DNA of 64,000 nt from a virus. Below the pieces are notes generated by a model, which saw only the letters and a program-made list of their open reading frames with translations, was not told where the DNA came from and ran no database searches. Below, one piece after another: positions 22,867-39,766 of this stretch; position 1 is the first letter of the stretch, and each line of letters opens with the position of its first letter. The stretch is taken from positions 32,001 through 96,000 of IMG/VR virus record IMGVR_UViG_3300020473_000023; one strand, 5' to 3'. The position numbers were made by a program, and so were the translations under genes.

Positions 22867-23475
22867 CTAGTCTCCGCCAGTAGCGGGCAAGCCTTCAGGG
22901 TCACCAATAGCACCGATTCCTGGCTCTCTCCCACCAGCAAGTGCAGAAGCAGGTTCTCTAATAGGGGCTATATTGAAATCAAAGTTTGTATCTAGAATAT
23001 TTTTAAATTCATCTATATAACCTTGGTCATAATTTTCGTCTAAGAAGTTAATAGCTCTATTTATTATAACAGTAGGGATATCTAGTCTAGCTCGGTATCC
23101 CAAGGCTAGTTGGGCAACTTTTTTAGTAAAAGAGTCAATATTCATTGCAGGACGCTTGGCAGGCTCTACAGGAGCAGATACATCGATATCTTCGCTTCCG
23201 ACGGGATCTTCAACTCCTGGGTCTTCCGGGGCTAGATTTTCATCTTGCTCAAATAGAAATGCTGATAGATTAAGATTGCTCAATGACTCAGTGACAAGAT
23301 CATCTGAGCTGACTATTGAACTAGCCTCGAAGTCAATCATGTGTGAGTCAATTTGATCGTCAACTGAATCCATAGACAGCCTGACTTTTGTCGAAGCATC
23401 TGCCATTGAAACAGGTTGATTTTCTTCATCCTGCTCTAGGATCATCTTCCTAAGATCATTAATTGAAATTTTCAT
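22867..23475 (-). CDS. Acidic leader-bearing hypothetical protein
   Basis: MKISINDLRKMILEQ, FLFEQ. Confidence 0.6.
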   Translation of the reverse strand: MKISINDLRKMILEQDEENQPVSMADASTKVRLSMDSVDDQIDSHMIDFEASSIVSSDDLVTESLSNLNLSAFLFEQDENLAPEDPGVEDPVGSEDIDVSAPVEPAKRPAMNIDSFTKKVAQLALGYRARLDIPTVIINRAINFLDENYDQGYIDEFKNILDTNFDFNIAPIREPASALAGGREPGIGAIGDPEGLPATGGD

Positions 23476-24203
23476 GAGAACCTCAGTGCTTGTGCAATCT
23501 TTTCTGCTCTTTCAAACCTTGACTCAATTACAGGCCAGTTGAGCTGTTTCATCATTCCATAGGTATATGTCTTAGCATCCTTAAGATAATCTCTATAATA
23601 TGCATGCTGCCAAACGTCCATCACTATAATCGGATATCCGCCAAATGGAACATTTAGACTGTGAAGGTCAACAATAGTATTGACATACCTTTGCAAGTAT
23701 GTATTAAAATAGGTCACAGCCCAGCCGCAGCGAGATGCCATACAGCAAGCTATAAAATCTTTTTGCCAGGCATCGAACGTTCCAAAGTCACGCTCCAGCC
23801 TCATATATGCCAAAGAGTCCATTCCGATTTGACTGTGTAGATCGCTAATATTTGCAAAATAAAGCTCATGCAAATAAATGGCATTCATGTTATATGTTTC
23901 ATCAATCTTAAGTGCTCTGTACTGAGAATGATTTGAGCTTACCTCTTCTCTATTTGCTGAGTCCAGCTGAGCACTGATTTTATTGAAATCATCAATGTAT
24001 TGCTCGTAAAGCTCAAGATGGTTTGTCTTATTTTGCTTACTTAAAAGCTCAGTGGGCAAATTAAACACCTTGTCTTGAGCGACATATGCTTCTTTGACTA
24101 AATTATTTCCCGGAATATCAGTCTCAGCATCAGTAGTGGGTTCTTCTTTATCAATTCCCAGGGTTTCTCTTATGTTCTTAATGATTTCTTCTTCTGTGAT
24201 CAT
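23472..24203 (-). CDS. Fe/Mn superoxide dismutase-like protein with N-terminal extension
   Basis: NHLELY, LHELYF, FGTFDAW, GWA, DVWQHAYY. Confidence 0.85.
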   Translation of the reverse strand: MITEEEIIKNIRETLGIDKEEPTTDAETDIPGNNLVKEAYVAQDKVFNLPTELLSKQNKTNHLELYEQYIDDFNKISAQLDSANREEVSSNHSQYRALKIDETYNMNAIYLHELYFANISDLHSQIGMDSLAYMRLERDFGTFDAWQKDFIACCMASRCGWAVTYFNTYLQRYVNTIVDLHSLNVPFGGYPIIVMDVWQHAYYRDYLKDAKTYTYGMMKQLNWPVIESRFERAEKIAQALRFS

Positions 24204-24959: not shown

Positions 24960-25634
24960 CTACAGTAAGTTAGAATAAATTGTAGAATAGCTTTTATTGT
25001 ATTTAAATTTTTCAAAATCCTTTTCATAAAATTTTAAAAATTCACTGAGCACATTTGGAAATCTTTCCCACGGAACTCTAATATCTGGAACGTCCTTAAG
25101 CGACACGTTCTCCCGAGGGAGAGAAGTTGATGGAGATATTATTTTTCTTCTCTGCAACTCAGACAAAAGTTCAGGTATTTGATCTTCTATCCTATACCAG
25201 TCTGTTCCTTCTCCGATAAATTCAAATTGGCTTCTAAAGTGATTATCATCTACCCCGGGTCCATTTTTAGGAATTACATTTTTAAAAAGATCTGTTACCC
25301 AGTCAATAAATCCCAGTGGGTGGGGATATTCAATTCCAAACTCTTTTGCCTGCTGCTTTGCTTTAGAAAATATTCTATCGTATGGGTTTCTAACAATAGT
25401 AAATTCATACTCCCACGTTCTATCCCAAAGATCCCTTAGGGCTCTATGCTGATGCTTGGACCGCTTATTGTCAGATACTTGAATCTCTCTAGACATTCTA
25501 GTCGGAAGAGGTCTATCTTTTTCAGCAATCTTCCACCCCTGGCTTTCGATCATCTTTCTAACAGAGCTTCCGCCAGCCTTTGGAATGTGAACAAATAAAA
25601 TTCTTCTTCCTTCACGTTCGTATATTGATGACAT
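24960..25634 (-). CDS. Sulfotransferase (Sulfotransfer_2 type)
   Basis: FVHIPKAGGSS (5'-PSB), VRNPYDRIFS (3'-PB), HFRSQ, YEKDF..F.Y. Confidence 0.85.
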   Translation of the reverse strand: MSSIYEREGRRILFVHIPKAGGSSVRKMIESQGWKIAEKDRPLPTRMSREIQVSDNKRSKHQHRALRDLWDRTWEYEFTIVRNPYDRIFSKAKQQAKEFGIEYPHPLGFIDWVTDLFKNVIPKNGPGVDDNHFRSQFEFIGEGTDWYRIEDQIPELLSELQRRKIISPSTSLPRENVSLKDVPDIRVPWERFPNVLSEFLKFYEKDFEKFKYNKSYSTIYSNLL

Positions 25635-26623
25635 TATTCCTCATCTTTAGATGACTCAATTTTATCTAAGATCTCTTCAACCTTGGCAACTGCCTCCTTG
25701 TCGCTCTCTTCTGCTAGAGCACTCTGAATTTTCTTAAGCTCTTCGCGAGCAGCTGAGGTGTCAACAGGCTCCTCTTCGACAGGCTCCTCTTCGGGGTCAA
25801 AGATATCATCAACACAAAGCTCGCCGCTTATCTGAAATCCTGCAGCTTTTTTGTGACCACCGCCTCCAAAACTCTTTGCAATCTCAGAAACATCAACTGC
25901 ATCATGAAAAGCCCTTAGGCTTACCTTGTTGATTCTATCCTCATGATCATAATACCATATAACAGCAAAGTCGCAATCAGGTGCAAGCCTAGCTCCGATC
26001 TCAGACATCCAGTGAGAAGAATTAACTACTATGACCTTCATTCCCTTATATTTTCTTACAACTGCCTTTTCACAAACCTTTTTAATGACTGTTTTACTAT
26101 AAGCAAGTATGTAAGATCCACGCTTAACAGCATCATCAAACACAGAATCATCTTCAAACTTCTCAAACTCTTCAAACTCGAATGGCACCATGTCAAATGC
26201 AGCACTAAACTCTTTTGAATAATCAAGCTCCCACTTCCAAAGATCTCGATCCTGAATATACTTGATAAACTTCGGCGGCTCTTTTCCTGGGTGAAACCAC
26301 TCCCATGCAAGCATTGCTCCGGATTTTGTCATATCAAAATGTGTGTTCGATATATCGTGAAGCTCTACCATCGCAGACTTATGGTGATCAATGACCAGCA
26401 ATGAGTTTGCTTCATCAATCATCTTCTTTGTCGTGGCATTGTCAAAGGAAAAATCTAAGATTACCACATTTTTTCCTTTGACATCTGGTGGAGGTGTGCC
26501 ATGTTTGCAAGCGTAGTATTCTGTTCTATTTCCTAAAAACTTCCAGGCTGAATAAGCCGCACCGAATCCGTCAGTACAGTTTGCATGGTAAATTACACAA
26601 TTCACACTGCTTGGTTCAATCAT
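25634..26623 (-). CDS. DHH/DHHA1 phosphoesterase (NrnB-like)
   Basis: YHANCTDG, ILDFS, DHH, GGGGHKKAAGF. Confidence 0.9.
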   Translation of the reverse strand: MIEPSSVNCVIYHANCTDGFGAAYSAWKFLGNRTEYYACKHGTPPPDVKGKNVVILDFSFDNATTKKMIDEANSLLVIDHHKSAMVELHDISNTHFDMTKSGAMLAWEWFHPGKEPPKFIKYIQDRDLWKWELDYSKEFSAAFDMVPFEFEEFEKFEDDSVFDDAVKRGSYILAYSKTVIKKVCEKAVVRKYKGMKVIVVNSSHWMSEIGARLAPDCDFAVIWYYDHEDRINKVSLRAFHDAVDVSEIAKSFGGGGHKKAAGFQISGELCVDDIFDPEEEPVEEEPVDTSAAREELKKIQSALAEESDKEAVAKVEEILDKIESSKDEE

Positions 26624-26658: not shown

Positions 26659-27216
26659 CTATTTTGACTGATTCATAAAACTGTGATGAAACCAGGATCT
26701 TGGCTCATAGAGCTCAGAGCCACCGACAGTAATTTCATCAAGACCAGAAAGCTTTCTGTGTGTATAGTACGCATCCTGCCCGGAAATTGGACACACAGCG
26801 GGACAAACCTCAATCTTTGTTGCCCATGGCATCATGTCTCTAATTTCCTCAAAAACATTTCCACTAGCAGAAAGCTGAAGTGAAGATACTACAACAGTCT
26901 TTCCCTCTCTAAAGAGGGAGAGAAGTGCTGATGCAGAACCATCTATCATAAAAGCCTCATCTACGGCAATAACATGAATATTTTCTTTATCCTGTAGATA
27001 TTTTAATATATCTTCACCAGTTTTTACACATGTGGCTGAAATCTTTCCCCCTGAATGTGTACAGATCTCACCTAAAGAATACCTGTCGTCCATTGCAGGC
27101 TTAAAGCAGACAATATTTCTATTTTGATATCTAAATCGATCTAGAGTTGCCATAAGCCTGGTCGTCTTAGATCCAAACATGGGACCAGTAAAAATTATAA
27201 ATTCAGGAATTCTCAA
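26659..27216 (-). CDS. tdk: Thymidine kinase
   Basis: GPMFGSKTT, KP..DDRY, VDEA, VGG.E.YEP. Confidence 0.9.
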   Translation of the reverse strand: MRIPEFIIFTGPMFGSKTTRLMATLDRFRYQNRNIVCFKPAMDDRYSLGEICTHSGGKISATCVKTGEDILKYLQDKENIHVIAVDEAFMIDGSASALLSLFREGKTVVVSSLQLSASGNVFEEIRDMMPWATKIEVCPAVCPISGQDAYYTHRKLSGLDEITVGGSELYEPRSWFHHSFMNQSK

Positions 27217-27634
27217 CTATAACCTCCGCAAGGTGTGCAAATGACTTATCCTCTCTTCCATAGTCGTCAATAATTCTAATTACACTATGATTTCTAGTGT
27301 CCCCTATTTCAAATATTATTGAATCTACTTCGGCTGTTATTCTATATGGACACTCAGATTGAATATTTAAGCACTCACCTTGAGACAGCGTCATCTTTCT
27401 CATTGGATGATTTGAAGGGTCTTCAAAAAATCCCTGATCTGCACAGTCAACAGAAACTCTCCCTTGAACGACAAATAAAGTTTCTGTCTTAACTTTATTC
27501 ATTTTAAAACTTAGCCTCTTTCCAGCTTCAATGGTTAGAATTTTTCCATAAGCATTTGGTGCTGTCCATGAAACCTCTGTGCCCCACGGCTTTACGTGAT
27601 TGTTGGAGACACCTCCCCATATTGCCTTACTCAT
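27203..27634 (-). CDS. Cupin (mannose-6-phosphate isomerase type II C-terminal-like)
   Basis: KPWG, K.L.I.AGKRLS, RIIDDYGR. The usual metal-binding His residues appear substituted. Confidence 0.7.
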   Translation of the reverse strand: MSKAIWGGVSNNHVKPWGTEVSWTAPNAYGKILTIEAGKRLSFKMNKVKTETLFVVQGRVSVDCADQGFFEDPSNHPMRKMTLSQGECLNIQSECPYRITAEVDSIIFEIGDTRNHSVIRIIDDYGREDKSFAHLAEVIVENS

Positions 27635-28631
27635 CTTTAAGACCCCACCACTCAACTGTTCTTTCTAGTCCCTCCCAAATTCTCACAACAGGCTCATACC
27701 CAAAATCTTCTCTAGCATTTGTAATATCTGCCTGAGTGTGCATAACGTCACCCGGCCTCCACGGTGCGTCAGTCACCTCTATATTAGGAAATTTATCTCT
27801 GAAGAAATCTAAGATTTGATTGTTTGTTGTTCTATCTCCGCAGGCAATATTATAATACTGTCCCTCAAAATCATCATCTCGACTTGCTACTAAAATATTA
27901 GCCTGAACAACGTTGTCAATATAGCAAAGGTCCCTTGACTGTGTTCCATCTCCATCACTCCTTAGGGGAAGGCCTCTAAGGACAGCATTGCACCATGCAG
28001 AAACAGCTGTTGAATACGGAGAATCTCCATACTGCCCTGGGCCAAATACATTAAAATATCTTAGGCACACAATATCAATATTATAAAGATTGCAAAAAAC
28101 ATTTGCGAGGTCTTCAATTGAAGATTTCTGCCAAGCATATGGAGATTTGGGGTCCTTTGGGTGATCTTCTGAAGTAGGCATTAAATCTGCCCCTCCGTAA
28201 ACAGAAGAGGATGATGCCCAGACAATTCTTCTAACGTTTCCAACACATGCTTCAAATAACCTGACAGTAGATCCAATATTTGTATTTGTTGTTATAGAGG
28301 GATTTTCAACAGAAAACAAGACTCTGGGTATTGCTGCCTGATGAAATACAACATCATATTTTCTCTGAGATATTTGATAAATTATTCCATCGGCAGCGAA
28401 GTCATCCTGAATAACCACAACAGTTTCCTGACCCCTTCCTGACTGTTTGTTAAATTCCGGGAGAAACTCTGAACTCGGAATTACTCTAAAGCTTAGCCCT
28501 TCTAAAAGCTCTAGATGGCCGTTTGACATATCGTCTACGATGTCAACTGTCCAGCCTTGACTGACAAGCTCTTTTGTTAGATTTGATCCGATGAATCCAC
28601 ATCCGCCTGTAACTAGTGCTCTTTTTTCCAT
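27627..28631 (-). CDS. NAD-dependent nucleotide-sugar epimerase/dehydratase
   Basis: TGGCGFIG, SSSSVYG, YAWQK, RYFNVFGP. Confidence 0.92.
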   Translation of the reverse strand: MEKRALVTGGCGFIGSNLTKELVSQGWTVDIVDDMSNGHLELLEGLSFRVIPSSEFLPEFNKQSGRGQETVVVIQDDFAADGIIYQISQRKYDVVFHQAAIPRVLFSVENPSITTNTNIGSTVRLFEACVGNVRRIVWASSSSVYGGADLMPTSEDHPKDPKSPYAWQKSSIEDLANVFCNLYNIDIVCLRYFNVFGPGQYGDSPYSTAVSAWCNAVLRGLPLRSDGDGTQSRDLCYIDNVVQANILVASRDDDFEGQYYNIACGDRTTNNQILDFFRDKFPNIEVTDAPWRPGDVMHTQADITNAREDFGYEPVVRIWEGLERTVEWWGLKDE

Positions 28632-28650
28632 ATTTCTACCTCGGTATATC

Positions 28651-29559
28651 TTACTCAAGAATGTGTGCAGAGTTTAAAGTGAAATGCATTCTACAAAAAT
28701 TACATCCTTCACCAAGCAGGCTCCAGCATTCTGAAGCTATAAAGTATAGAAACTTTAAATCGTGCTGAAACTTGTTATTAATATCTGTTGATCTACAGAC
28801 AAATCTGATATCTAGGACTCCGCCTCTGTTGAGAATGTGAATCATTGAGATGCAGGTATCTTCTGTGAACACGTACCTTCTAGAGCCTATACCTTCTTTT
28901 CTTTCATACGGATTATTTCCTGCTTGCTCATCATCTATTTTATTCATCAGTGTGTTGTAGATGTGACAATAGTATTCTTTCTCTGACTCCTCACTCATAG
29001 AAGATATATCTGACTCTTTAAATTCACCATCGTCATGAAGTGTAAAGGTTAGTTGATTGCACTCCTTGTTTGGAAAGTGTTTGACAAAATTCCCAATCTG
29101 GCCGTAGATCTCTTTTAAGCTTAGATTCTTTTCAATGCAATTATGATAGTCAACAACCATGCTTGCAAGACGCCCTGATGCTCCATTCATAATGCCATAG
29201 ACGTTTGAGAGTGCAGGCCATCTGGCAAACTCTTTGTAAAAGTAATCATACGAATCCTTAAGAGATTCAATTGTGTGAATTTCATCTCCCCGGTGATTGT
29301 ACCTTTCTCTAAGGACCTCAAATGTAGGCATCATAAAAACATATCTGTTGTTAAGATTGCTAACCTCTTCATAGAATTCTCTAGTTGCTTGATCGACATC
29401 TCTGTTATACATCTTAGAAAATACCATTCTTGATAGCTTCGACCTATCCATTAGATGCCATCGGTAGTCAGTCTTTTTGTGAATGTCACTAATAAGTGTT
29501 GTCTTTCCAGAAAGGTCTGGCCCTTCAATGGAGATCATATTGATTGGAAAAGTTAGCAT
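28651..29559 (-). CDS. dNMP kinase fused to a truncated thymidylate synthase/dCMP-hydroxymethylase-like domain
   Basis: N-terminal EGPDLSGKTT, DRS, RGD. C-terminal SRR, DTC, RSTD-x7-D, SAHI. Confidence 0.75.
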   Translation of the reverse strand: MLTFPINMISIEGPDLSGKTTLISDIHKKTDYRWHLMDRSKLSRMVFSKMYNRDVDQATREFYEEVSNLNNRYVFMMPTFEVLRERYNHRGDEIHTIESLKDSYDYFYKEFARWPALSNVYGIMNGASGRLASMVVDYHNCIEKNLSLKEIYGQIGNFVKHFPNKECNQLTFTLHDDGEFKESDISSMSEESEKEYYCHIYNTLMNKIDDEQAGNNPYERKEGIGSRRYVFTEDTCISMIHILNRGGVLDIRFVCRSTDINNKFQHDLKFLYFIASECWSLLGEGCNFCRMHFTLNSAHILE

Positions 29560-29568
29560 TATCCTACC

Positions 29569-32500
29569 TCACACATTAATCTTTCTCATCTTGTAGGAAG
29601 ATGTACTACATCCCCAAGATTCAGTTGATGCAACTTCAGCAATCCATATTGTATATGGATCAGGAACTTCTTTAAACTTTGTCCAGACTCTAAGCCAGCA
29701 GCTTTCAGAATTGTTATCGCAAACTCTCATTCTATAGAATATCTTTCCATTCTTGGTCTTCTTCTCAATAATTTCCTGAATGCAGAACCAGACTACATCT
29801 TTTGTCTTTCCAGAGAGTGCAGTAATCGGCTTAAGTTCAGACTTCTTAATCTTTTCCATTATCTTGGGAGGAAAGACAAGCGTCTCGTCAGCTCCTGACA
29901 TTAAGTCAACACTGAACCCGATCTTTAGGGTTCGAGACCAGTCAGCAGACCCGTAGTTGTCAACAATAAGCTTAGGAACAAATTCCTCAACAGTTGCCTG
30001 TGTCTTGAGGAGGCGCTTATGTGCAGTCTTTGTCATCCCATACCTACCTTTCTTCAATTGATCATAGTTTCCAACAATTATATCATGAAGCTGTCTGTGA
30101 TTTTGAATTTCTCCTTGGGATATTTCTGCTATACTTCCAAACGCCTCTACCTTACAAAGAGAATCAAAGGCTGTTTTATTTAGCTTGGAAGGCTTCCACT
30201 TCCCATCTTCTGTAAATAAAATATCATCAAGGGTGCTATATGGTCTATTTTCCATAATCTCAGTAACAGCAGATCCTCCAACACCTTTGATAGCAGTAAG
30301 CGGTGGTACGAACCCTTGCCTTTCTTCACTATACACCCAGACGTCTGAAGAAGCATTGATATCGGGTTGAAGGATTTTATATCCTAGTGACTTGATCTCT
30401 GCTATGATCTTTGCAAACTTTGGAGATCCGTTCCACGTCTGAAGGCATGTAGCGAGCCATTCCTTTTCATGGTATGTGTGTAACCATGCAGAATAATATG
30501 AATCAACAGCGTAGGCGACCGCATGTGACTTATTGAAGCCATAGGCAGAGAACGCCTCAATTGTCTCGTAGAGCTTGGTTGCTTTGTCTTCTGCCATGCC
30601 AGATAGTTTAACGGCACCTCCAATAAACTTCTCTCTAAGGTCAGCCCTCTCTTTTGCCTTTTTGTCATTCATGTCAAGAGACTTCTTGACAAGAGTCTTT
30701 CTCATCTTATCTGAAGCGCCTTTGTCGAATCCGCACAGCTTTTGTGCAATAAGCATGAACTGCTCCTGAAAGACGACGAATCCACGGCTTTCGCTTAGGA
30801 GATCTTCAAGGACAGGGTGGTCGTATGTAATGCTTTCAATGTTTTCACCGGCCCGAACATATTTCCTATGAACGTTAGCTGCAAGGGGTCCTGGTCGATA
30901 GATTGCTGTAATGGTTGCAAGGTCTTCAATAGATCTAGGCTTGGCAGCCACACAGAAGTTTCTAGCACCTGTATTTGTGAACTGAAATACTTGGACGAAT
31001 CTCCCATCGTGATAAACGTATTCCCAAACCTTTTGATCATCCATCTTGTGAAATCTACTATTTAGATTTGCATCAAAGAATTCATTAATATCGTCAAACG
31101 TAGGATTTTCTACGCCTTGGTTTCTTAGGATGAGTCTGATAGAATCTTCCACCATTTTAAGAGTTGCTAGCCCAAGAAAGTCAAATTTAAGAAATCCATT
31201 CTCTTCAAGGTGCCTCCAGTTCATTCCTTCTGACCACGGTGTTTGAAGCTCACCCCTAACTTTAATGACAGGCATACTGCTCTCAAGATCTGGGCAGACT
31301 AATACACCGCCAGCATGGCGACCGATCGATCTAGGCTCCATAAAGAGAGATTGAACGTGCTCTGCAATCTTAGGGTTATCGTTCATAAATTCCCGATAGG
31401 GTTCGCTGTATTTCATGCAGTCCTCATGAGAAAGAACATATGTTGACTTTTCCTCATGATCACCCATGGCTCTTGGCATTACCTCTCTTTCCAGCGGACC
31501 TGTTAGAGCGTTTATCTTATCAAAAGGAATTCCATAAAACTTAGAAACGTCCTTAACAAGTGACCTTAACTTTAAAGTGTTAAAGTTGGAGACAGGTATG
31601 ACAGAGTCTTCGCCAAAGAGCTCTCGAGAGACATCGATGAGTACATCTCTATCACCTACGTCAGAATCAATATCAGGCCAAGAAGCCTTGTGAATGCCAA
31701 GAAATCTCTCGAACAGAAGCCCATATTGAATAGGGTCAATGTGGGTAATCCCAAGGACATAGTTTACTAAGCTTCCGCCACCAGAACCTCGACCCGGACC
31801 GAGTAGAGTTCTATGCTGAGACTTCTCAAACACCTTAGTTAGAGTCAAGAAGTAATTTTCAAAGCCTAGCTGCTTAATAACAGACATTTCCTCCCTAATC
31901 CGATTGACGTACTCGAGATTGTCATGAAGCCCTTCTTTGATCATTCCCTGCTTTACCTGTTCAACAAGCTGAGTAAACGCAGGCTTCTCAGGTGTTCCGA
32001 AGTTTGGAAGCTTTGCTGATCCGTCAAACCAGACTTCTTCGCAGAGGTCCCAGGCAATTCCATGAGATCTCTCAATTGCTTCTCGAACAGCTGTCTCACT
32101 TCCCTTATAGAAATCATATTTATCATAGCTCTTTCCAAATTCATCCCACATCTGCTGTGCATTCTTAGGATAGAGCTCACACTTTAAATCCTCCTTCTGG
32201 GGAAGTTTAGGCATTTCATCGCCTCTTGCACCCATTCTTCCAAGCATCTTATACATCTCTCTTGCCTCCCACATGTCTGGATTGCAATAGTGAGAATCAG
32301 CTGTGGCAAGAAGTGGGACTCCTGTCTTTTCAGAAAGCTTGATCAAGCACCTATTGGCAAGGTTTTGTGCAACAAGATCATTAAACTGTATTTCAAGAAA
32401 AAAGTTTTCTTCGCCTACGGCATCTACAAATCTGTCTGTCATATTCTCAAGCTTTCTCATGATCTGATTAAGGACAACAGGATCGTCTACAAGATCGGGT

Positions 32501-33153
32501 GTCAGCTCATCAAACCTCTTTCCTTCAAAGTGCTGAAAGATATGGCCCGAAGGACGCCCACCAACACACGCTGTGGACACAGCAAGCCCTTCAGAGTGTT
32601 CCTTAAGCATCTTGTAGTCAATACGGGGAAACCTATAGAACCCCTCCTTGTATGATCTCTTGACCAATCTAAAGAGGTTCTGCAACCCTTTGTAATTCTT
32701 AGCGAGAACTACAAGATGGTACCGCTTTTTCCAGGAGGGATAGGTTCCCCTCTCTGCCTTGGATTCATCTTCGTTTTCAATAACCAAGCCATCGTTCTCA
32801 TCCCCCTCAGAAACCTCACTCTTTGACTTCTTCTGAAGTTCTTTCTCAAGCCTGACCTGCTCTCTATATTGATTATAGTCTGTTTGCCATTCGTCTAAGT
32901 CATCTACAAAGTAGCACTCACAGCCATAGATGTGTCGATATCCCACCCCTTTGTTCTTTAGCTTTTTAGCATAGTTGTGAGCATGAGCAGCAGAGTTCAT
33001 GTGCCCATGATTTGTTAATGCAAAAGCATCCATTCCATTTTCAAGAACAAAGTCAATATGCTCGTTAGGGTATCCAAGGCCATCATATACAGAGCTTCCA
33101 TCGTGAGCATGAAGACCTACAAATCTTTTAGGTATGGTAAAATTATTAAACAC
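29569..33153 (-). CDS. dnaE: DNA polymerase III alpha subunit
   Basis: PHP domain (HAH, TNHG, DSHY), GRGS, PDIDSD, KFDFLGL, FNKSH, C-terminal OB fold. Confidence 0.96.
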   Translation of the reverse strand: MFNNFTIPKRFVGLHAHDGSSVYDGLGYPNEHIDFVLENGMDAFALTNHGHMNSAAHAHNYAKKLKNKGVGYRHIYGCECYFVDDLDEWQTDYNQYREQVRLEKELQKKSKSEVSEGDENDGLVIENEDESKAERGTYPSWKKRYHLVVLAKNYKGLQNLFRLVKRSYKEGFYRFPRIDYKMLKEHSEGLAVSTACVGGRPSGHIFQHFEGKRFDELTPDLVDDPVVLNQIMRKLENMTDRFVDAVGEENFFLEIQFNDLVAQNLANRCLIKLSEKTGVPLLATADSHYCNPDMWEAREMYKMLGRMGARGDEMPKLPQKEDLKCELYPKNAQQMWDEFGKSYDKYDFYKGSETAVREAIERSHGIAWDLCEEVWFDGSAKLPNFGTPEKPAFTQLVEQVKQGMIKEGLHDNLEYVNRIREEMSVIKQLGFENYFLTLTKVFEKSQHRTLLGPGRGSGGGSLVNYVLGITHIDPIQYGLLFERFLGIHKASWPDIDSDVGDRDVLIDVSRELFGEDSVIPVSNFNTLKLRSLVKDVSKFYGIPFDKINALTGPLEREVMPRAMGDHEEKSTYVLSHEDCMKYSEPYREFMNDNPKIAEHVQSLFMEPRSIGRHAGGVLVCPDLESSMPVIKVRGELQTPWSEGMNWRHLEENGFLKFDFLGLATLKMVEDSIRLILRNQGVENPTFDDINEFFDANLNSRFHKMDDQKVWEYVYHDGRFVQVFQFTNTGARNFCVAAKPRSIEDLATITAIYRPGPLAANVHRKYVRAGENIESITYDHPVLEDLLSESRGFVVFQEQFMLIAQKLCGFDKGASDKMRKTLVKKSLDMNDKKAKERADLREKFIGGAVKLSGMAEDKATKLYETIEAFSAYGFNKSHAVAYAVDSYYSAWLHTYHEKEWLATCLQTWNGSPKFAKIIAEIKSLGYKILQPDINASSDVWVYSEERQGFVPPLTAIKGVGGSAVTEIMENRPYSTLDDILFTEDGKWKPSKLNKTAFDSLCKVEAFGSIAEISQGEIQNHRQLHDIIVGNYDQLKKGRYGMTKTAHKRLLKTQATVEEFVPKLIVDNYGSADWSRTLKIGFSVDLMSGADETLVFPPKIMEKIKKSELKPITALSGKTKDVVWFCIQEIIEKKTKNGKIFYRMRVCDNNSESCWLRVWTKFKEVPDPYTIWIAEVASTESWGCSTSSYKMRKINV

Positions 33154-33215: not shown

Positions 33216-34286
33216 TCAATCTATAAATTTTCTTCTCAGCCTGAGGGACTCTAGCTTTTCAATAAGCTCTTTCTCTTCTGGGGAAGCGTCTGTCGGGATG
33301 CTTACAGTAACATGAACATTGTGAAATCCACGAATCTGAGCATTGATATCAACAGGAAGCCCTTCATTTGAAATTTGAATAATATCACCTGGCTGAATTC
33401 CCGGTCTAATTTCTACAGAAAGAGTCTTATCTATTCCCCCTATATTAACCTTTGACCCAAGAACAGCTTCACTATAGGATATAGATACGTGACTATGAAT
33501 ATCACTACCATCCCTATAGAGCTTCTGGTGATCTTTGACTACAATCTCTAAGAAAGCATCTCCGGCAATGTCCGCTGTGGCTTCTTTGTTTCCCATGCCC
33601 GAAAGCTTAAGAACATTTCCAGAATGGATTCCACTGGGTATCGAGACATTAATTTCCTTTTTCTTTCGTACAGACCCAGAACCGTGACAGCTAGAGCATG
33701 GGTTGGATATTGTAAATCCGTATCCTGAGCAGCTTCCACAAGAAGTTGCAAATGTTACAAACCCCCCGACACTTTGCTGAACCCTTCCTGTTCCGGCGCA
33801 TGTCTTGCACCTAGACCTATCTGACTTATCTAAATAGCCATGCCCTGAACACGGTTCACATAGAACTATTTGATTGATATGAATAGTCTTACTGCAACCT
33901 GTTAGGACTTCTTCAAGGTCTATTTCAATCGTATTCTTAGTGTCTGATCCCTTTCTCTTAACATCACGCTGTCTTCTTCCACCAAAAAAGTGATCAAATC
34001 CTGAGAACATATTTTCAAAATGTCCGAATATATCTCTTGGATCGAACTGAGAAGAGAAGCTAGAAGAGACACCCTCGTGTCCAAATCTATCATAATTTAC
34101 ACGCTTTTCAGGATCAGAAAGCACTGAATAAGCCTCGGCTGCTTCTTTAAATTTTAGCTCAGCATCCGGATCATCTGGATTCTTATCAGGATGATATTTC
34201 ATAGCCTGCTTTCGATAAGCTTTCTTTATATCACCCTCAGAAGAGTCTTTTTTAACTCCTAGTATTTCATAATAGTCTCTTTTCAA
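33216..34286 (-). CDS. dnaJ: Chaperone DnaJ
   Basis: J domain with HPD, G/F region, four CxxCxGxG repeats. Confidence 0.95.
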
Positions 34287-34540
34287 ATATCTTTCTCGTA
34301 ATAGTTTCTAGTTACAATCATTTCAGATTTCTCACCGTCTACAGAGTATTTAATCTCCATTTCCCAAGAAGGCTCTTTGACATTGTTTAAGAATCTTTCC
34401 TGAATATAGAATAGCTCGTCTCTTCGCTTAACTTTTTCTACTTCTTCTTTTGCAGACTCCCAAGAAGAGAAAATTCCAACCAAGGAAGTTGAAATATTTC
34501 TACATCGGATAAGGGCATATACTTTATTCAATACTTCCAT
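34283..34540 (-). CDS. Hypothetical protein
   Basis: KVY...LVGIFSS.E.A pattern common in phage ORFs. Confidence 0.5.
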
Positions 34541-34964
34541 AGTAAGGCTCATGAAGAAGCATGCTGAGATCTGAGCATCGAGAAAGATAATCATCAAGCT
34601 CATCAAACGAGGTGCAGACCTTGGCCCCCGATTGTGCTAGCATTAGATTAAATGTAGCTCCTTCTGGAAGCCCTGCACAAAAATAAACTATAGGTGTATC
34701 AGATTGAAAGGCAACGCCTGCTTCAAAAATACTTCCCATATCTTTATCGCGAGTATTGCAAATTACAAAGTCATTTCCAAGAATGTGTTCAACATTTCCC
34801 TCAAACGTCTCTCTTTGTGTCTTAAGATCAGCTGTTGGCGGACATACAAAGAAGTCTTTTGGTGAAAAATAGTCAAATCCATTTTTTGTAAGAAGTGATT
34901 TAATAGTTTCAACCTCCTCAAAGGCAGTCGGTGTAAACCAAGAGCTTGCAATATACGCTTTCAT
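34524..34964 (-). CDS. Nucleoside 2-deoxyribosyltransferase/nucleotide N-glycosidase family protein
   Basis: YIAS.WF, FSP, DMGSIFEAG, NLML. Confidence 0.82.
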   Translation of the reverse strand: MKAYIASSWFTPTAFEEVETIKSLLTKNGFDYFSPKDFFVCPPTADLKTQRETFEGNVEHILGNDFVICNTRDKDMGSIFEAGVAFQSDTPIVYFCAGLPEGATFNLMLAQSGAKVCTSFDELDDYLSRCSDLSMLLHEPYYGSIE

Positions 34965-34974
34965 TAACTTTCTC

Positions 34975-35964
34975 CTATTTGTTATTGTTCATATAGTTTG
35001 CGTATTCATCTTTCATTTCTTGAATTTCTTCAAGAGTTGAAGTCCAAATTTTCTCAAAAATAGTTGGACCGTCATTAGGAACTGTTCCCTTAATATCTTC
35101 TCGACGAGATTGATAAATTGAATCATCAGGGTGATATTCAAACAGATCGTTCTTTGGCTCCGGCCAGTATAGATTTGTTCCCCTTGAGGTGAAGCCACCT
35201 TGTCCATCGGAAACTCTAAAAGTCTTTACATAGTGCATATCAGGCTTGTCAAAGTTAATTCTAGAAGAGGCTTCTGGGAGAACCTTGATTAGCTCCTTAG
35301 CCATATAGGCTGCCAGCAAATTGTCTGCAGCTGGTTGAATTTGCATATCTTGCCTCTGGGCGATGAAGCCTAAAAGATCTTTGAGATTAAGTCTCATCAG
35401 ATAAAAAGATGTCATGCACTTTGGAAGAATCATTCTAGCATCCATCATAGAGACATCTTTTGAATCTGTCATGTCTGCATAGAGCTGCTTTGCCTCCCTT
35501 GTTAGTGTAATCCACCTATCTAAAAATTCAGGAGAGTTTTCAACAGCCTCAGGAATAACAGCAGGATCATCACGAAGATCTCGATCGCCGGTGCACTGGG
35601 CGGCAAAAGAACCGGCTCGGTGTCGAATAATATGCGTGACTTCCTGGAATGACAAGCCGCTTAATTTAAAAGTAAACCCAAAACATTCCATTGGTGTTGG
35701 TAGTGCCCTAAAGCAGAGGACGTCTTCCAGATTAGAGGACATTTCTTGCGGTGTGGCTGTTGTAGGATTTGTGTCATCAGGGTTGTCTGCCCAGGTGGCT
35801 TTTACGTACTGCCAGGCAACGTTTAATGCCTGATCCCGAGTTGGATAGTCAACAAGCTCAACCTTTAAGGCTGACAAGTTGTTAAAAAATTCTGTAGTAG
35901 GCTCCTGTCCGAACTTTAGGTCCATTGGGAGACTGATTGGCTTAAGATTATGATTGACTGGCAT
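34975..35964 (-). CDS. thyX: Divergent flavin-dependent thymidylate synthase (ThyX-like)
   Basis: HIIRHR..SF, DARMILP, NLKDL..F..QR. The RHRx7S serine is replaced by Cys. Confidence 0.75.
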   Translation of the reverse strand: MPVNHNLKPISLPMDLKFGQEPTTEFFNNLSALKVELVDYPTRDQALNVAWQYVKATWADNPDDTNPTTATPQEMSSNLEDVLCFRALPTPMECFGFTFKLSGLSFQEVTHIIRHRAGSFAAQCTGDRDLRDDPAVIPEAVENSPEFLDRWITLTREAKQLYADMTDSKDVSMMDARMILPKCMTSFYLMRLNLKDLLGFIAQRQDMQIQPAADNLLAAYMAKELIKVLPEASSRINFDKPDMHYVKTFRVSDGQGGFTSRGTNLYWPEPKNDLFEYHPDDSIYQSRREDIKGTVPNDGPTIFEKIWTSTLEEIQEMKDEYANYMNNNK

Positions 35965-36020
35965 TTATCTTCCTTTCATATTGATTGTTACACGAAGGTG
36001 ACACTTTGTTCACCTCTTTT

Positions 36021-36974
36021 TCACATAAAATTATTCTTCATTAAAAGAGCGTCGATGAGAACTCTTAGCTGGCTCGGGCCATAATACATCTTGACGCCTT
36101 CAACACTTTCAAGCTCTGAATTGTATGAAGTAACGGGAGAAAGAGTTGAAACTCCGTGCTTGGCATATTCAGCGCTATGTTTGGCAGAATCATCAATAGC
36201 ACATACAATTTTTCCAGAGTCAAAATATTCAGACTTAGTTAGCCATCTATACTTCTCAGCGCTAAAATCAACTCTGTGAAATTTTAACCCTGATTTGCTT
36301 AGCCACCTGTATGTATCATACTTACATTGAAGAACATCTCCTGGCCGAGCTGTTAAGAGTTGAATCCAGCATCCGCTATCATAAAAGTGATTTATAGTCT
36401 GTACGACACCTGTATCTACTGTGAGAGTTCTAAGCTTTCTTTCTGCCAAAAAGTCATCAAATACTTCTTCAGGATTTAGTCCGGCATCTCTAACTTCTGA
36501 TGTAGTATAATACTCAGTAGACTCTCTGTCGACTAAAACGCCTCTCTCGGATTCAAGCCAGTCAATAAAGTTAGATCTAAAATGTGCAATCACATCATCA
36601 ATATCAAATACAAGGACAGGCTGGCCCTCCCAGGCCTGAGATTCGATATGATATCTCATATGAAGAAACATGTCCTTATCTTCAAATGCGTCAGATAGAG
36701 ATCCTGGGTCTATGTTCCAAAGATTTAAAATTGCAAGAAGATATCTAAAAACATCAACTGATTCGTATAGAATCTTTGAAGGATCAGCAACGCTCCTAAG
36801 TCGTCTATGATCTTTAAAGTTAACTGCGCTTATTAGTTCAGAAACTTCGGCATGAAGAGCCAGGGCAAAAGATTTTGTCATCTCTTCTCTTTCACTATCT
36901 GACATATTTTCAGGTTTAAAAAAAAGATCAGAAAATTTATTTTGACGATTAAAGAAATAGTCTAAGTCTCTCAT
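36021..36974 (-). CDS. All-alpha NTP pyrophosphatase (dUTPase/MazG-like) fused to an NT5C-like HAD nucleotidase
   Basis: EVSE...YESVD, then FDIDDV, LTAR, IDDS. Confidence 0.8.
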   Translation of the reverse strand: MRDLDYFFNRQNKFSDLFFKPENMSDSEREEMTKSFALALHAEVSELISAVNFKDHRRLRSVADPSKILYESVDVFRYLLAILNLWNIDPGSLSDAFEDKDMFLHMRYHIESQAWEGQPVLVFDIDDVIAHFRSNFIDWLESERGVLVDRESTEYYTTSEVRDAGLNPEEVFDDFLAERKLRTLTVDTGVVQTINHFYDSGCWIQLLTARPGDVLQCKYDTYRWLSKSGLKFHRVDFSAEKYRWLTKSEYFDSGKIVCAIDDSAKHSAEYAKHGVSTLSPVTSYNSELESVEGVKMYYGPSQLRVLIDALLMKNNFM

Positions 36975-36990
36975 ATTTCCTCCTAGTTCA

Positions 36991-37018
36991 ATTATAACTT
37001 AGAAAGAAATAAAGTACA
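36991..37018 (-). promoter_or_regulatory. Class A promoter TGTACT-N16-TATAAT
   Basis: Upstream of 36974 with SD AGGAGG. Confidence 0.6.
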
Positions 37019-37025
37019 TGAGATA

Positions 37026-37397
37026 CTAATATCCTTCTGTCAACCTTTTGTGAATTACTTCGTCCTTTCTAGTATACTCTCTAAACAAATCATCTGAGCT
37101 AAATCCTGTCATAATGAGAAGAGAGAAAAAGTAATTAAAGGCATCAACCATCTCTTCAAGAAACTTCTCTCTATCGAACCCAGAGATCTCAGTGACTCTA
37201 TGCGGTTTCCAGTTTTTAAGATGCTGAAGGGCTTCGAACATTTCTTCGACACCCCTTAGAGCGACATCCCTGCAAATCTGCTGATCCTCTTTTTTACTTA
37301 GGTCTAGAGGGGCGGTTGGAGTTGATCCGGGAATTTTTTCACCCAAAGATCTCATAAACAGCTCCCTCAGTTCAAACATAGAATCAAGCTTGTCCAT
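37026..37397 (-). CDS. All-alpha dUTPase/dCTPase (MazG-like)
   Basis: EEMFE, WKPH, EEMVD, K...HKR...GY. Confidence 0.8.
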   Translation of the reverse strand: MDKLDSMFELRELFMRSLGEKIPGSTPTAPLDLSKKEDQQICRDVALRGVEEMFEALQHLKNWKPHRVTEISGFDREKFLEEMVDAFNYFFSLLIMTGFSSDDLFREYTRKDEVIHKRLTEGY

Positions 37398-37647: not shown

Positions 37648-38454
37648 TTACTCCTGTACTTCTGGAACCCAGTGGGTGGTTCTTCCATCTTTTGTTTTTT
37701 CTTTTATGACAGTGTTTCCGTGCGGATCTGTCTTTTGATTATAAACCAAAAACCTTTGACTGTATTCTCCTATCTCTCCTTCAAATCCAGAATATGTACT
37801 AATTGTAGCACCTCCTGTATCATAGGACGCCCTTATTGTCTTCTTGATGCTTTCATTTAAAAGAATGATCTCTTGATCTGAGAGAGATTTGCATGCCCTG
37901 TGGGGTGAGATTTTTGAAATGTAAAGAGATTCTGCTTTAAGATAGTTTCCAACCCCGGATATCACAGACTGATCCATTACAGCTTGGGCAATTGTCTTTT
38001 TATTGCACGCTCTAATTCTTCTTAAAAAGTCATCATTCTTAACATCGTCATTTAGCATGTCAGGCCCTAGAGAGTTTAACTTATTAATTAAAAGATCTTT
38101 TCCCCTTACAATCTTTAAAGTTCCAAAGTTTCTAATATCGTTAAAAAAAATAGACTCTCCGCCTAGACAAATCTTGACCCTTGAGTGCTTGTTGCGGGTT
38201 CCCGACCACGTCCCAGACATTCCCAGTGTATTCCAAATAGCCCATTCATTTTCAAGAATTATAAAGATAAACTTTCCATGACACCCAGCACCTGCAATTT
38301 TCAATGGAAGTTCATGTAAAATACTATCAAAACCGTCGGGCGGACCGTGATTCTTATATCTACCAGATAAAATCTCAATGCCATCTAGAGATTTCCCCCC
38401 AACTCTTTCAGCAAGAGATTCAGCAATTCTTCTAACTTCTGGGCCTTCTGGAAT
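37648..38454 (-). CDS. Fpg/Nei DNA glycosylase with zincless finger (ATT start)
   Basis: In-frame extension gives (M)PEGPEVR. Also GK, LGMSG, DIRNFG, LGPD, H2TH DQ..ISGVGNYL, GRTTHW.P..Q. Confidence 0.92.
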   Translation of the reverse strand: MPEGPEVRRIAESLAERVGGKSLDGIEILSGRYKNHGPPDGFDSILHELPLKIAGAGCHGKFIFIILENEWAIWNTLGMSGTWSGTRNKHSRVKICLGGESIFFNDIRNFGTLKIVRGKDLLINKLNSLGPDMLNDDVKNDDFLRRIRACNKKTIAQAVMDQSVISGVGNYLKAESLYISKISPHRACKSLSDQEIILLNESIKKTIRASYDTGGATISTYSGFEGEIGEYSQRFLVYNQKTDPHGNTVIKEKTKDGRTTHWVPEVQE

Positions 38455-38501: not shown

Positions 38502-39161
38502 ATGAAAAGAATCATAGTTTCGGACACACACATAGGGACTAGATTCTATAAGTCTGAAGAGCTTTTAAAGTTTCTTAAAACAGAGGAGTTTGATCAGCTC
38601 ATACTTGCAGGCGATATCATAGACTTTATTAAGATACCGACATTTACTGAGAGGTGTATGGAGATCTTGGAGGCAATTGGAAAAAACAAGGAAATCATAT
38701 ACGTCGTAGGAAATCATGATGAAAGCCTGGTTGGATTAATTGGTAGGCAATTTTTTAATATTAAATTTGTTAAGAAGTATGAGTTTCAAGAGGGAAAGAG
38801 AAAGTTTAGAATAGAGCACGGAGATGACTATGACAAGGGTGTAATTCACAATAGAGTCTTTATTAAGCTCCTATCAGTTATTCAAAATATGCTAGAATTT
38901 GCATTTAACTTTGACTTCACAACGTGGTGGACGTCGATTCAAATTAAAAGGCATAAGCTGAGGAGTGTTATTCATATCCTTAGACATCACCCAAATATTG
39001 ATGTATTTATAATGGGACATACACACATACCTGAAGCAGTTATCTGGATAGACGAAGATCAAAATATTAAAACATATATCAATGCAGGTGACTGGGTTAC
39101 ACACCAGACATATGTTACAGTAGTTAACGGCGTGTCTAGACTAAGAAAGTTTGAATCTTAG
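38502..39161 (+). CDS. Calcineurin-like metallophosphoesterase (LpxH-like)
   Basis: SDTH, GDIID, GNHD, HGD, GHTH, NAGDW. Confidence 0.88.
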   Translation: MKRIIVSDTHIGTRFYKSEELLKFLKTEEFDQLILAGDIIDFIKIPTFTERCMEILEAIGKNKEIIYVVGNHDESLVGLIGRQFFNIKFVKKYEFQEGKRKFRIEHGDDYDKGVIHNRVFIKLLSVIQNMLEFAFNFDFTTWWTSIQIKRHKLRSVIHILRHHPNIDVFIMGHTHIPEAVIWIDEDQNIKTYINAGDWVTHQTYVTVVNGVSRLRKFES

Positions 39162-39588: not shown

Positions 39589-39766
39589 TGTCATCTCCAG
39601 TATTATCATACTGAAGCAGATCTCTGTTGTTCAAGCTCTTCTTTTGAACTATCCTGTCTGAAATAGCACATGCTAGTTCGAGAAATGTGTTTCCAATAAA
39701 ATTTATGACTAGAGATAGAATCACCATAAAGACAATTACGATAATTATCGACGGAATCTGTGTCAT
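39557..39766 (-). CDS. Small membrane protein
   Basis: N-terminal hydrophobic helix. Confidence 0.45.
   Translation of the reverse strand: MTQIPSIIIVIVFMVILSLVINFIGNTFLELACAISDRIVQKKSLNNRDLLQYDNTGDDNDMDAPEVTV

What the first reader, a model, noticed from the sequence alone, without database searches (positions are those of the whole stretch)
28651..29559. dNMP kinase fused to a minimal TS-fold domain with the dCMP-specific Asp
Seen: C-x19-RSTD-x7-D...SAHI. Known (recalled sequences): T4 gp42 dCMP hydroxymethylase has C-x19-RSND-x7-D...SLHVY. That last Asp (Asp179, versus Asn177 in E. coli ThyA) selects dCMP over dUMP. Here the domain is only about 155 aa, seems to lack much of the folate-binding region, and has Leu for the HxY Tyr. 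It sits directly downstream of dnaE. Inference: an enzyme that modifies C5 of (d)CMP, possibly with an unusual donor or partner subunit, and channels the product to its own kinase.
Basis: partly seen in the sequence, partly recalled or inferred. Interest (0 to 1): 0.85.

Follow-up and report, generated by a model that had tools for sequence, protein, structure and literature searches.

The report
Phage kinase fused to mini thymidylate-synthase
A large uncultured marine phage encodes, right after its DNA polymerase gene, one protein joining a nucleotide kinase to a stripped-down thymidylate-synthase-like domain with a cytosine-nucleotide active site, so it may build an altered cytosine into its DNA, but the chemistry is untested.

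Summary
The 302-aa ORF (28651-29559, minus strand) has two domains. Residues 1-146 are a YorR/thymidylate-kinase-like P-loop kinase. Residues 147-302 are a 156-residue thymidylate-synthase (TS) fold carrying SRR, Cys236, x19, RSTD, x7, Asp267 and SAH. These residues are invariant, or nearly so, in 81 syntenic homologues.

The closest solved relatives are all cytosine-nucleotide enzymes and are statistically tied: MilA, the flavin-dependent dCMP 5-hydroxylase AfhB, and T4 gp42.

The domain lacks TS's C-terminal closing segment, and probably the Trp80/Trp83 region. The pterin-contacting Asp169 position varies (N39/D31/E10). A conventional folate site is therefore unlikely.

Stand-alone versions of the mini domain exist. 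In some phages one sits immediately after a true gp42 orthologue, so it is not simply a shrunken hydroxymethylase.

YorR-like kinases also neighbour TS homologues in published 5-hydroxycytosine clusters. The fusion fits that recurrent pairing.

My best reading is Cys-dependent C5 modification of dCMP, with 5-hydroxylation as the single likeliest product, coupled to phosphorylation by the fused kinase. Product, cofactor and channelling are all untested.

This scan found the same family earlier on other DNA and reached the same reading.

The parts
28651..29559 (-). Whole ORF, 302 aa plus stop: kinase::mini-TS fusion
   Evidence: more than 213 full-length homologues; 81 in IMG/VR
29122..29559 (-). 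N-terminal P-loop kinase domain (res 1-146), YorR / thymidylate-kinase / deoxynucleoside-kinase-like
   Evidence: PDB profile hit to YorR 2axp, E 5.6e-7; VIA Z 13.6 to YorR 3kb2, 12.7 to dAK, 12.5 to dTMP kinase; phrog_761 'thymidylate kinase' 2.5e-9
29497..29526 (-). P-loop EGPDLSGKTT (E12, D15, K19 invariant)
29440..29448 (-). DRS motif (D38, R39 invariant), counterpart of the DR[YFH] motif of thymidylate kinases
   Evidence: the motif equivalence rests on my own knowledge of TMPK
29284..29304 (-). Lid-like R86-x3-R90-G-D92 (all invariant or 80/81)
   Evidence: (aligned with YorR RVRGDE)
28654..29121 (-). C-terminal minimal thymidylate-synthase-fold domain (res 147-302)
28981..28983 (-). Glu193, invariant in the fusions and in stand-alone mini-TS proteins; candidate counterpart of TS Glu58 at the start of helix B
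   Evidence: the equivalence is inferred from secondary-structure order only
28876..28884 (-). S226-R227-R228, aligned with the SRR (Arg126'/Arg127') phosphate-binding pair of TS
   Evidence: hhalign; invariant R227, R228 80/81
28852..28854 (-). Cys236, aligned with the catalytic Cys (Ec C146 / T4 C148); 81/81
28783..28794 (-). R256-S257-T258-D259 (Ec R166-S167-C168-D169). R and S are invariant; D259 position is N39/D31/E10
28759..28761 (-). Asp267, at the Ec Asn177 / T4 Asp179 position that selects cytosine over uracil; 80/80 aligned
   Evidence: role of the residue as cited in PMC13326640
28663..28671 (-). S297-A298-H299 (Ec H207 position); the protein stops 3 residues later
29569..33153 (-). 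dnaE (Pol III alpha), 9 nt upstream; found upstream in 80/80 related loci
27627..28658 (-). NDP-sugar 4-epimerase-like extended SDR; its start overlaps the fusion's stop by 8 nt; within 3.5 kb in 51/80 loci

Best explanation
This is a bifunctional nucleotide-modifying enzyme of a marine jumbo phage. SHOWN: residues 147-302 form a minimal TS fold. It retains every residue that TS-family enzymes use to hold a pyrimidine 5'-monophosphate and to attack C6. These are SRR227/228, Arg256, Ser257, Cys236 and His299, plus Asp267 at the position that selects cytosine. Residues 1-146 are a YorR / thymidylate-kinase-type P-loop kinase with an intact P-loop, DR motif and lid. INFERRED: the domain binds dCMP and Cys236 adds to C6. 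The activated C5 then attacks an electrophile held in a rebuilt cofactor pocket rather than a classical folate pocket. My single most likely pick is a flavin hydroperoxide giving 5-hydroxy-dCMP, as in AfhB / RB69 gp48 (about 0.3). Hydroxymethylation or some other C5 chemistry remains open. The fused kinase then phosphorylates the modified dCMP. The cell's diphosphate kinase would make the triphosphate, and the co-transcribed DnaE would incorporate it. The MazG-type pyrophosphatases, dCMP deaminase, ThyX and TK encoded nearby would manage the canonical pools. The confidence given is for 'Cys-dependent C5 modification of a cytosine nucleotide coupled to the fused kinase', not for the specific product.
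For: Fold and residues: (TS family fills all top ranks; MilA Z 11.4, AfhB 11.3, ThyA about 10). Sequence homology to the dCMP-specific branch. Purifying selection on both active sites across 81 syntenic homologues down to 28% identity. The fusion is the only TS-fold gene in the lineage, with no PF00303 in the own 106 kb or in relatives of 284 kb (100% complete), 236, 237 and 202 kb. ThyX supplies dTMP, so the domain is not the thymidylate synthase. A non-classical cofactor site is suggested by three points. The protein ends 3 residues after His299 and aligns only to Ec ThyA 1-210. A 12-14-residue deletion lies before the Cys. The Asp169 position varies N/D/E. AfhB is the top Foldseek hit for both models. 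Kinase-TS link: YorR/TMPK-like 'nucleotide kinases' sit beside the 5hodCMP synthases in DLP3 (gp78, best fold hit YorR 3kb2), RB69 (gp45) and RL38J1 (gp214) (PMC13326640, Table 1). RB69 gp45 shares the GPDxxGKTT P-loop. Separate kinase genes matching my kinase-domain HMM lie next to TS homologues in L084-L086 and L097. Context: the gene is translationally coupled behind dnaE and lies amid MazG-like NTP pyrophosphatases, dCMP deaminase, TK, ThyX and an NDT-like protein.
Against: No activity has been measured for any member. Pfam and NCBIfam models of TS and of thymidylate kinase do not reach threshold. This protein has Asp, not the Asn proposed as diagnostic for 5-hydroxy-dCMP synthases (PMC13326640). 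The region holding Tyr94, which AfhB-type and gp42-type enzymes keep, seems deleted. No flavin reductase was identified. No glycosyltransferase lies beside the gene, or anywhere in the 106 kb, with the three Pfam models tried. Stand-alone mini-TS genes coexist with a true gp42 orthologue, so the family's role may not be a primary C5 modification of dCMP. The kinase's substrate is unknown: the fold is as close to deoxynucleoside kinases as to dNMP kinases. No evidence on the virion DNA is available.
Confidence: 0.5

Rival explanations
1. Folate-dependent dCMP hydroxymethylase, a gp42-type enzyme in miniature. CH2-THF is bound with help from the kinase domain or the dimer partner, the product is 5-hydroxymethyl-dCMP, and the fused kinase phosphorylates it.
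For: T4 gp42 is the best PDB sequence hit (E 2.6e-4). This protein keeps Asp at the Asp169 position (RSTD) and has an acidic residue three before the Cys. The IRD-like Arg245 is shared with gp42.
Against: The C-terminal closing segment is absent, and probably the Trp80/Trp83 region too (secondary structure). Asp169, which contacts the pterin in TS, is replaced by N or E in 49 of 80 orthologues. Stand-alone mini-TS genes sit directly after a real gp42 orthologue, which would make them redundant. hhalign does not favour gp42 over the hydroxylase family.
Confidence: 0.15
2. The mini-TS performs a different Cys-dependent reaction. It could act on an already 5-substituted dCMP, for example by re-forming the exocyclic methylene intermediate and trapping another nucleophile. 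Or it could use a so far unknown electrophile. Either way the product would be a cytosine derivative not yet described.
For: It coexists with a gp42 orthologue inside a sugar-activation cluster (kinase, HAD, NTP-transferase/APH) in L084-L087. Neither the folate-type nor the hydroxylase-type signature is fixed at the Asp169 position. The architecture is distinct and minimal, and the domain also occurs alone.
Against: The fusion lineage has no canonical TS homologue to supply a 5-substituted substrate. There is no direct evidence for any such chemistry.
Confidence: 0.15
3. The TS-fold domain is a non-catalytic or regulatory dCMP-binding module. It would act as a specificity or allosteric domain for the kinase, or as a scaffold in a dNTP-synthesis complex, and the phage DNA would carry ordinary cytosine.
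For: Major parts of the TS catalytic apparatus are lost. No modification-dependent partner such as a glycosyltransferase lies next to the gene. A dCMP deaminase and ThyX indicate ordinary pyrimidine metabolism.
Against: The nucleophilic Cys is invariant in 81 fusions and in every stand-alone copy aligned, together with Glu193 and His299. Pure binding domains usually lose the nucleophile. Stand-alone copies exist without any kinase.
Confidence: 0.1
4. The kinase works upstream rather than downstream. It would be a deoxycytidine or other nucleoside kinase that feeds dCMP to the TS-fold domain, or it phosphorylates something other than the nucleotide's 5'-phosphate.
For: The fold is equally close to deoxyadenosine kinase (Z 12.7) and dTMP kinases (Z 12.5). 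YorR itself is uncharacterised. In RB69 the T4-gp1-type dNMP kinase, not gp45, was the enzyme shown to phosphorylate 5hodCMP (PMC13326640).
Against: The P-loop carries the Asp of the thymidylate-kinase EGxDxxGK signature, and the lid resembles RxxxRG of type II TMPKs (comparison from my own knowledge). This rival is compatible with the main reading of the TS-fold domain.
Confidence: 0.15

Closest known systems
Flavin/O2-dependent dCMP 5-hydroxylases (5hodCMP synthases): AfhB of E. coli phage HY126 (PDB 9iqu, 9iqc), RB69 gp48, DLP3 gp80, RL38J1 gp216 (PMC13326640)
   Same: TS fold. Aligned SRR, catalytic Cys, RS, cytosine-type Asp and SAH[VI] motifs. Top Foldseek hit, VIA Z 11.3 over 140 residues. 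A YorR/TMPK-like kinase gene accompanies the synthase in all three published clusters.
   Different: Those enzymes are 217-238 aa, stand alone, reach Pfam PF00303 and keep the YGPR (Tyr94) region. All carry Asn at the Asp169 position. Here the domain is 156 aa and fused to the kinase, gets no PF00303 hit, and has Asp at that position (N in only 39/81 relatives).
T4 gp42 deoxycytidylate hydroxymethylase (PDB 1b49/1b5d) and its orthologues
   Same: C-x19-RS[NT]D-x7-D spacing, Asp179 equivalent, Arg in the I-R-D turn, S-x-H near the end. Best PDB sequence hit, E 2.6e-4; hhalign 94.6%.
   Different: gp42 is 246 aa with a folate site and a C-terminal extension. It is not fused to a kinase. In L084-L087 a gp42 orthologue (50% identity to T4) and a stand-alone mini-TS are separate adjacent genes.
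MilA CMP hydroxymethylase (PDB 5b6e/5b6d)
   Same: Best VIA-align match (Z 11.4, rmsd 2.8 A, 139 residues); specific for a cytosine nucleotide.
   Different: 318 aa, bacterial antibiotic pathway, folate-dependent, no kinase domain. No sequence-level hit was found.
Thymidylate synthase ThyA
   Same: Core fold and nucleotide-binding residues (Z about 10 over about 140 residues, Ec residues 1-210).
   Different: Asn177 is Asp here. About 70 internal residues and the last 54 or so residues are missing. The phage uses ThyX for dTMP.
B. subtilis SPbeta YorR (PDB 2axp, 3kb2) and thymidylate / deoxynucleoside kinases
   Same: P-loop kinase fold, Z 13.6 over 139 residues. Profile hit E 5.6e-7 including the DR..S and RGDE motifs.
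   Different: YorR is a separate 173-aa protein of unknown substrate. Here the kinase is 146 aa and covalently joined to the TS-fold domain.

Membership tests
Thymidylate synthase / dCMP hydroxymethylase superfamily (fold level) | TS alpha/beta fold | tested here: met
   Domain-only model, pLDDT 97.2. 338 or more Foldseek hits at E<=1e-3, all TS family at the top. VIA Z 11.4-9.5 for the top 50, 138-143 of 156 residues aligned.
Thymidylate synthase / dCMP hydroxymethylase superfamily (fold level) | Catalytic Cys, Arg166/Ser167, and the Arg126'/Arg127' pair | tested here: met
   C236, R256, S257, R227 and R228 aligned by HMMER and hhalign; invariant in 80-81 of 81.
Thymidylate synthase / dCMP hydroxymethylase superfamily (fold level) | Reaches the Pfam PF00303 model | tested here: not met
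   No PF00303 hit even at E<=10; none in the genome scan.
Folate-dependent TS-family enzymes (ThyA, gp42, MilA) | C-terminal segment that closes over the folate | tested here: not met
   The protein ends 3 residues after His299. The structural alignment stops at Ec residue 210 of 264.
Folate-dependent TS-family enzymes (ThyA, gp42, MilA) | Conserved Asp169 (pterin contact) | tested here: inconclusive
   Asp259 in this protein, but N39/D31/E10 across 81 syntenic orthologues.
Folate-dependent TS-family enzymes (ThyA, gp42, MilA) | CH2-THF-dependent activity | not testable with these tools
   Needs an enzyme assay.
dCMP-specific branch (gp42, AfhB, MilA) | Asp at the Ec Asn177 position | tested here: met
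   D267, 80/80 aligned.
5hodCMP synthases (AfhB / RB69 gp48) | Asn at the Ec Asp169 position (diagnostic proposed in PMC13326640) | tested here: not met
   RSTD in this protein; Asn in 39 of 81 relatives.
5hodCMP synthases (AfhB / RB69 gp48) | Bound flavin and O2-dependent hydroxylation | not testable with these tools
   Needs purified protein (colour, UV-vis, LC-MS, 18O2). The paper describing AfhB itself was not in the library.
5hodCMP synthases (AfhB / RB69 gp48) | Acidic residue at the Ec Leu143 position | tested here: inconclusive
   The residue 3 before the Cys is E here (D43/S13/Q8/N6/G5/E3 in the family). A 12-14-residue deletion directly before the Cys makes the equivalence uncertain.
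YorR / thymidylate-kinase-like P-loop nucleotide kinases | P-loop, DR motif, Arg-rich lid, kinase fold | tested here: met
   EGPDLSGKTT, DRS and RxxxRGD, all invariant. YorR E 5.6e-7; Z 13.6.
YorR / thymidylate-kinase-like P-loop nucleotide kinases | Reaches Pfam Thymidylate_kin or dNK thresholds; defined substrate | tested here: not met
   Only sub-threshold AAA and cytidylate-kinase hits. PF02223 was not found in the genome scan. The substrate was not testable.

The most novel reading that the evidence does not exclude
[quoted passage not shown] It would carry out a C5 chemistry on cytosine nucleotides that is neither folate-type hydroxymethylation nor AfhB-type hydroxylation. A widespread lineage of marine jumbo phages, in which the fusion always follows dnaE, would then carry a cytosine derivative not yet described.
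Probability: 0.2. Interest if true: 0.9.

Novelty: new variant of a known kind. Interest (0 to 1): 0.7.

Why it matters
Phage DNA base modifications defeat restriction and CRISPR defences, and they have repeatedly yielded new enzymology and tools. This family is large: 432 clusters at 50% identity match the domain, and more than 200 are full-length fusions. It is confined to uncultured viruses and has no Pfam or NCBIfam name.

If the domain is active, it is the smallest TS-fold catalyst known. It would show which parts of the fold suffice to activate C5. The fusion would also assign a role to the unexplained YorR-like 'nucleotide kinases' found in the RB69, DLP3 and RL38J1 5-hydroxycytosine clusters.

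It would also flag an abundant group of marine jumbo phages as carriers of modified cytosine. That affects how their DNA behaves in sequencing and in host-defence studies.

Tried and rejected
- **No cultured phage.** tblastn against 50,697 phage records finds no phage with the fusion. The only hit is a 93-residue kinase match in a faecal contig. The stand-alone proteins P0343 and P0373 had no hit. P0376 hit only canonical Bacteroides-phage TS weakly.
- **No canonical TS or thymidylate kinase.** No PF00303 or PF02223 in the own 106-kb record (about 40% complete by CheckV).
- **Glycosyltransferases.** GT1, GT2 and GT4 Pfam models found nothing in the own 106-kb record. GT1 genes occur in 2 of 4 large relatives but about 100 kb from the fusion, so they are uninformative.
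- **D/N/E split.** I asked whether the D, N and E variants at the Asp169 position go with different neighbours. There was no clear association beyond sequence divergence.
- **Loci searches.** The search for related loci failed for alignment A5, found nothing for P0343, and for P0376 returned only L097, which is a canonical 323-aa TS homologue rather than a mini-TS.
- **Missing paper.** The original AfhB paper (He et al.) is not in the library, so flavin-contacting residues could not be compared.
- **No coordinates.** Model coordinates are not exposed. The interdomain geometry and the 'channelling' idea could not be examined.
- **ESM Atlas.** The nearest clusters are TS/dCMP-hydroxymethylase-like at score 0.90. 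This is a lead only.

Full report
**What is there**

The window is part of a 106-kb IMG/VR virus record that CheckV rates about 40% complete. Nearly all its genes lie on the minus strand. Besides the replication genes, the phage encodes GroEL, DnaJ, RNR, DnaB and a UvsX-like recombinase.

The ORF at 28651-29559 (-) encodes 302 aa. It starts 9 nt after the stop of a 1194-aa dnaE. Its own stop overlaps the start of the next gene by 8 nt. SAH299-I-L-E-stop. The T4 gp42 string it was compared with is confirmed by real alignments.

**Two domains**

AlphaFold2, run with a 46-sequence alignment, gives a confident model (pLDDT 94.5, pTM 0.90).

- **Kinase domain (residues 7-151).** It superposes on SPbeta YorR (Z 13.6), deoxyadenosine kinase (12.7) and dTMP kinases (about 12.5). 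A family profile finds YorR in the PDB at E 5.6e-7, aligning the DR..S and RGDE motifs.
- **TS-fold domain (residues 147-302).** I modelled it alone (pLDDT 97.2). It hits only TS-family chains at the top. In Foldseek, AfhB (9iqu) leads at E 1e-6. In VIA-align the top matches are MilA Z 11.4 (2.8 A, 139 residues), AfhB Z 11.3 and ThyA about 10. E. coli ThyA is covered only over residues 1-210.

At sequence level the domain profile reaches T4 gp42 (E 2.6e-4) and AfhB (6.9e-3) in the PDB. Profile-profile comparison gives 95.8% / E 8e-9 to the RB69 gp48 family and 94.6% / 7e-8 to gp42 orthologues. These two are effectively tied. Pfam's TS model does not detect the domain.

**Conservation**

More than 213 homologues of about 300 aa exist. 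Nearly all come from metagenome assemblies, many of them marine (Tara), and none has a curated family assignment. In 81 IMG/VR fusions, with identity down to 28%, both active sites are fixed:

- Kinase: E12, D15, K19, D38, R39, R86, G91, D92.
- TS-fold domain: E193, R227, C236, and in 80 of 81 also R228, R245, R256, S257, D267, H299.

The position equivalent to E. coli Asp169 is not fixed: N39 / D31 / E10. This protein has Asp there.

**What is missing**

Relative to gp42 and gp48, 12-14 residues directly before the Cys are deleted. Only about 15 residues of coil join helix B to the SRR strand. ThyA has about 60 residues there, including Trp80, Trp83 and Tyr94; this comparison rests on my knowledge of the E. 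coli structure. Everything after His207 + 3 is absent.

A classical folate site is therefore unlikely. The Tyr94 region that both gp42-type and AfhB-type enzymes keep also seems to be gone. This is a distinct minimal branch, not a trimmed copy of either.

**Context**

Synteny is strongly conserved across the lineage (gene identities):

| Neighbour | Loci of 80 |
|---|---|
| dnaE upstream | 80 |
| NDP-sugar 4-epimerase-like SDR (within 3.5 kb) | 51 |
| TK | 67 |
| dCMP deaminase | 68 |
| DHH phosphoesterase | 49 |
| Fe/Mn SOD | 57 |
| NDT-like protein | 47 |
| ThyX | 39 |
| Two MazG/dUTPase_2-like pyrophosphatases | about 25 each |

All these loci belong to one lineage, so the counts show inheritance rather than independent association. 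No canonical TS homologue exists in the own record or in four large relatives, one of them 284 kb and rated 100% complete. The fusion is thus the lineage's only TS-fold protein, and ThyX makes its dTMP.

**The kinase-TS link**

Lee et al. (NAR 2026, PMC13326640) showed that TS homologues of RB69, DLP3, RL38J1 and others make 5-hydroxy-dCMP using O2 and a flavin. Their Table 1 lists an unexplained YorR/TMPK-like 'nucleotide kinase' in each cluster: DLP3 gp78, RB69 gp45 and RL38J1 gp214.

RB69 gp45 shares the GPDxxGKTT P-loop with this protein. Separate kinase genes matching my kinase-domain HMM sit beside TS homologues in four further metagenomic loci. The fusion is a Rosetta-stone-type argument that this kinase type acts in the same pathway as the C5-modifying enzyme.

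**A complication**

A profile search of 1.84 billion representatives found 432 matches. Among them are stand-alone mini-TS proteins of 164-200 aa with the same invariant residues.

In loci L084-L086 the gene order is: kinase, then a 223-aa protein, then the mini-TS, then a HAD phosphatase, then an NTP-transferase/APH fusion (L087 keeps the gp42-like protein followed by the mini-TS). The 223-aa protein is 50% identical to T4 gp42. The HAD and NTP-transferase/APH genes resemble RB69 gp51 and gp52:53.

Where a genuine dCMP hydroxymethylase is present, the mini-TS is kept next to it. It is therefore not simply a small hydroxymethylase. I cannot name one function that fits both settings (notebook).

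**Verdict**

My best reading (0.5) is Cys236-dependent C5 modification of dCMP in a non-classical cofactor pocket, coupled to phosphorylation by the fused kinase, feeding a modified dCTP to the adjacent DnaE. Flavin-dependent 5-hydroxylation is the single most likely product (about 0.3). The rivals are:

- folate-dependent hydroxymethylation (0.15);
- other or downstream C5 chemistry (0.15);
- a non-catalytic binding module (0.1);
- a kinase acting upstream rather than downstream (0.15; compatible with the main reading).

No paper in four full-text searches describes this fusion or the mini domain. The same family was noted, and followed up with the same conclusion, on other genomes in this scan. 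I read those notes after reaching my own reading.

Noticed in passing
L084:4702-8371 (also L085, L086, L087): Stand-alone mini-TS (181 aa) overlapping the end of a T4 gp42 orthologue (50% identity). The cluster also holds a YorR/gp45-like kinase, a gp51-like HAD phosphatase and an NTP-transferase/APH fusion like RB69 gp52:53 / AfhE. It looks like a sugar-hypermodified hydroxymethylcytosine cluster with an extra TS-fold gene.
   Followed up: partly
L097:4257-6720: A 179-aa kinase matching my kinase-domain HMM lies two genes upstream of a 323-aa canonical TS homologue. This is another instance of the kinase-TS pairing.
   Followed up: partly
window 26659-29559: Four genes overlap end to start: fusion/SDR by 8 nt, SDR/cupin by 29 nt, cupin/TK by 14 nt. 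This suggests one translationally coupled unit behind dnaE.
   Followed up: no
window 23472-24203: A 243-aa protein with only the C-terminal Fe/Mn superoxide dismutase domain recognised by Pfam. It is conserved near the fusion in 57 of 80 related loci. SOD is unusual in phages. A link to O2/flavin chemistry is pure speculation.
   Followed up: no
window 34524-37397: Four nucleotide-metabolism genes upstream of dnaE/DnaJ: an NDT-family (nucleoside 2-deoxyribosyltransferase-like) protein, a long weak-scoring ThyX (329 aa), a MazG/dUTPase_2-like domain fused to a HAD-like domain, and a second MazG-like pyrophosphatase. Together they look like a pool-control module of the kind seen with modified-base phages.
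   Followed up: partly
window 37648-38304 and 39136-39609: Fpg/Nei-type and HhH-GPD-type DNA glycosylases encoded by the phage.
   Followed up: no
window 24960-26623: A sulfotransferase-like gene abuts a DHH/DHHA1 (NrnA-like) phosphoesterase. NrnA-type enzymes hydrolyse pAp, the by-product of PAPS-dependent sulfotransfer. The sulfotransferase is present in only 4 of 80 related loci.
   Followed up: no
window 8117-9727 and 33216-34286: Phage-encoded GroEL (phrog_5725, 1e-156) and a full-length DnaJ.
   Followed up: no
BFVD hits of model m053e17760e16: Small TS-fold viral proteins of 151-174 aa, e.g. A0A3G1L3Q7 of Synechococcus phage S-CBWM1 and W8CQ29. These may be stand-alone mini-TS proteins in cultured phages. 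Not checked at sequence level.
   Followed up: no
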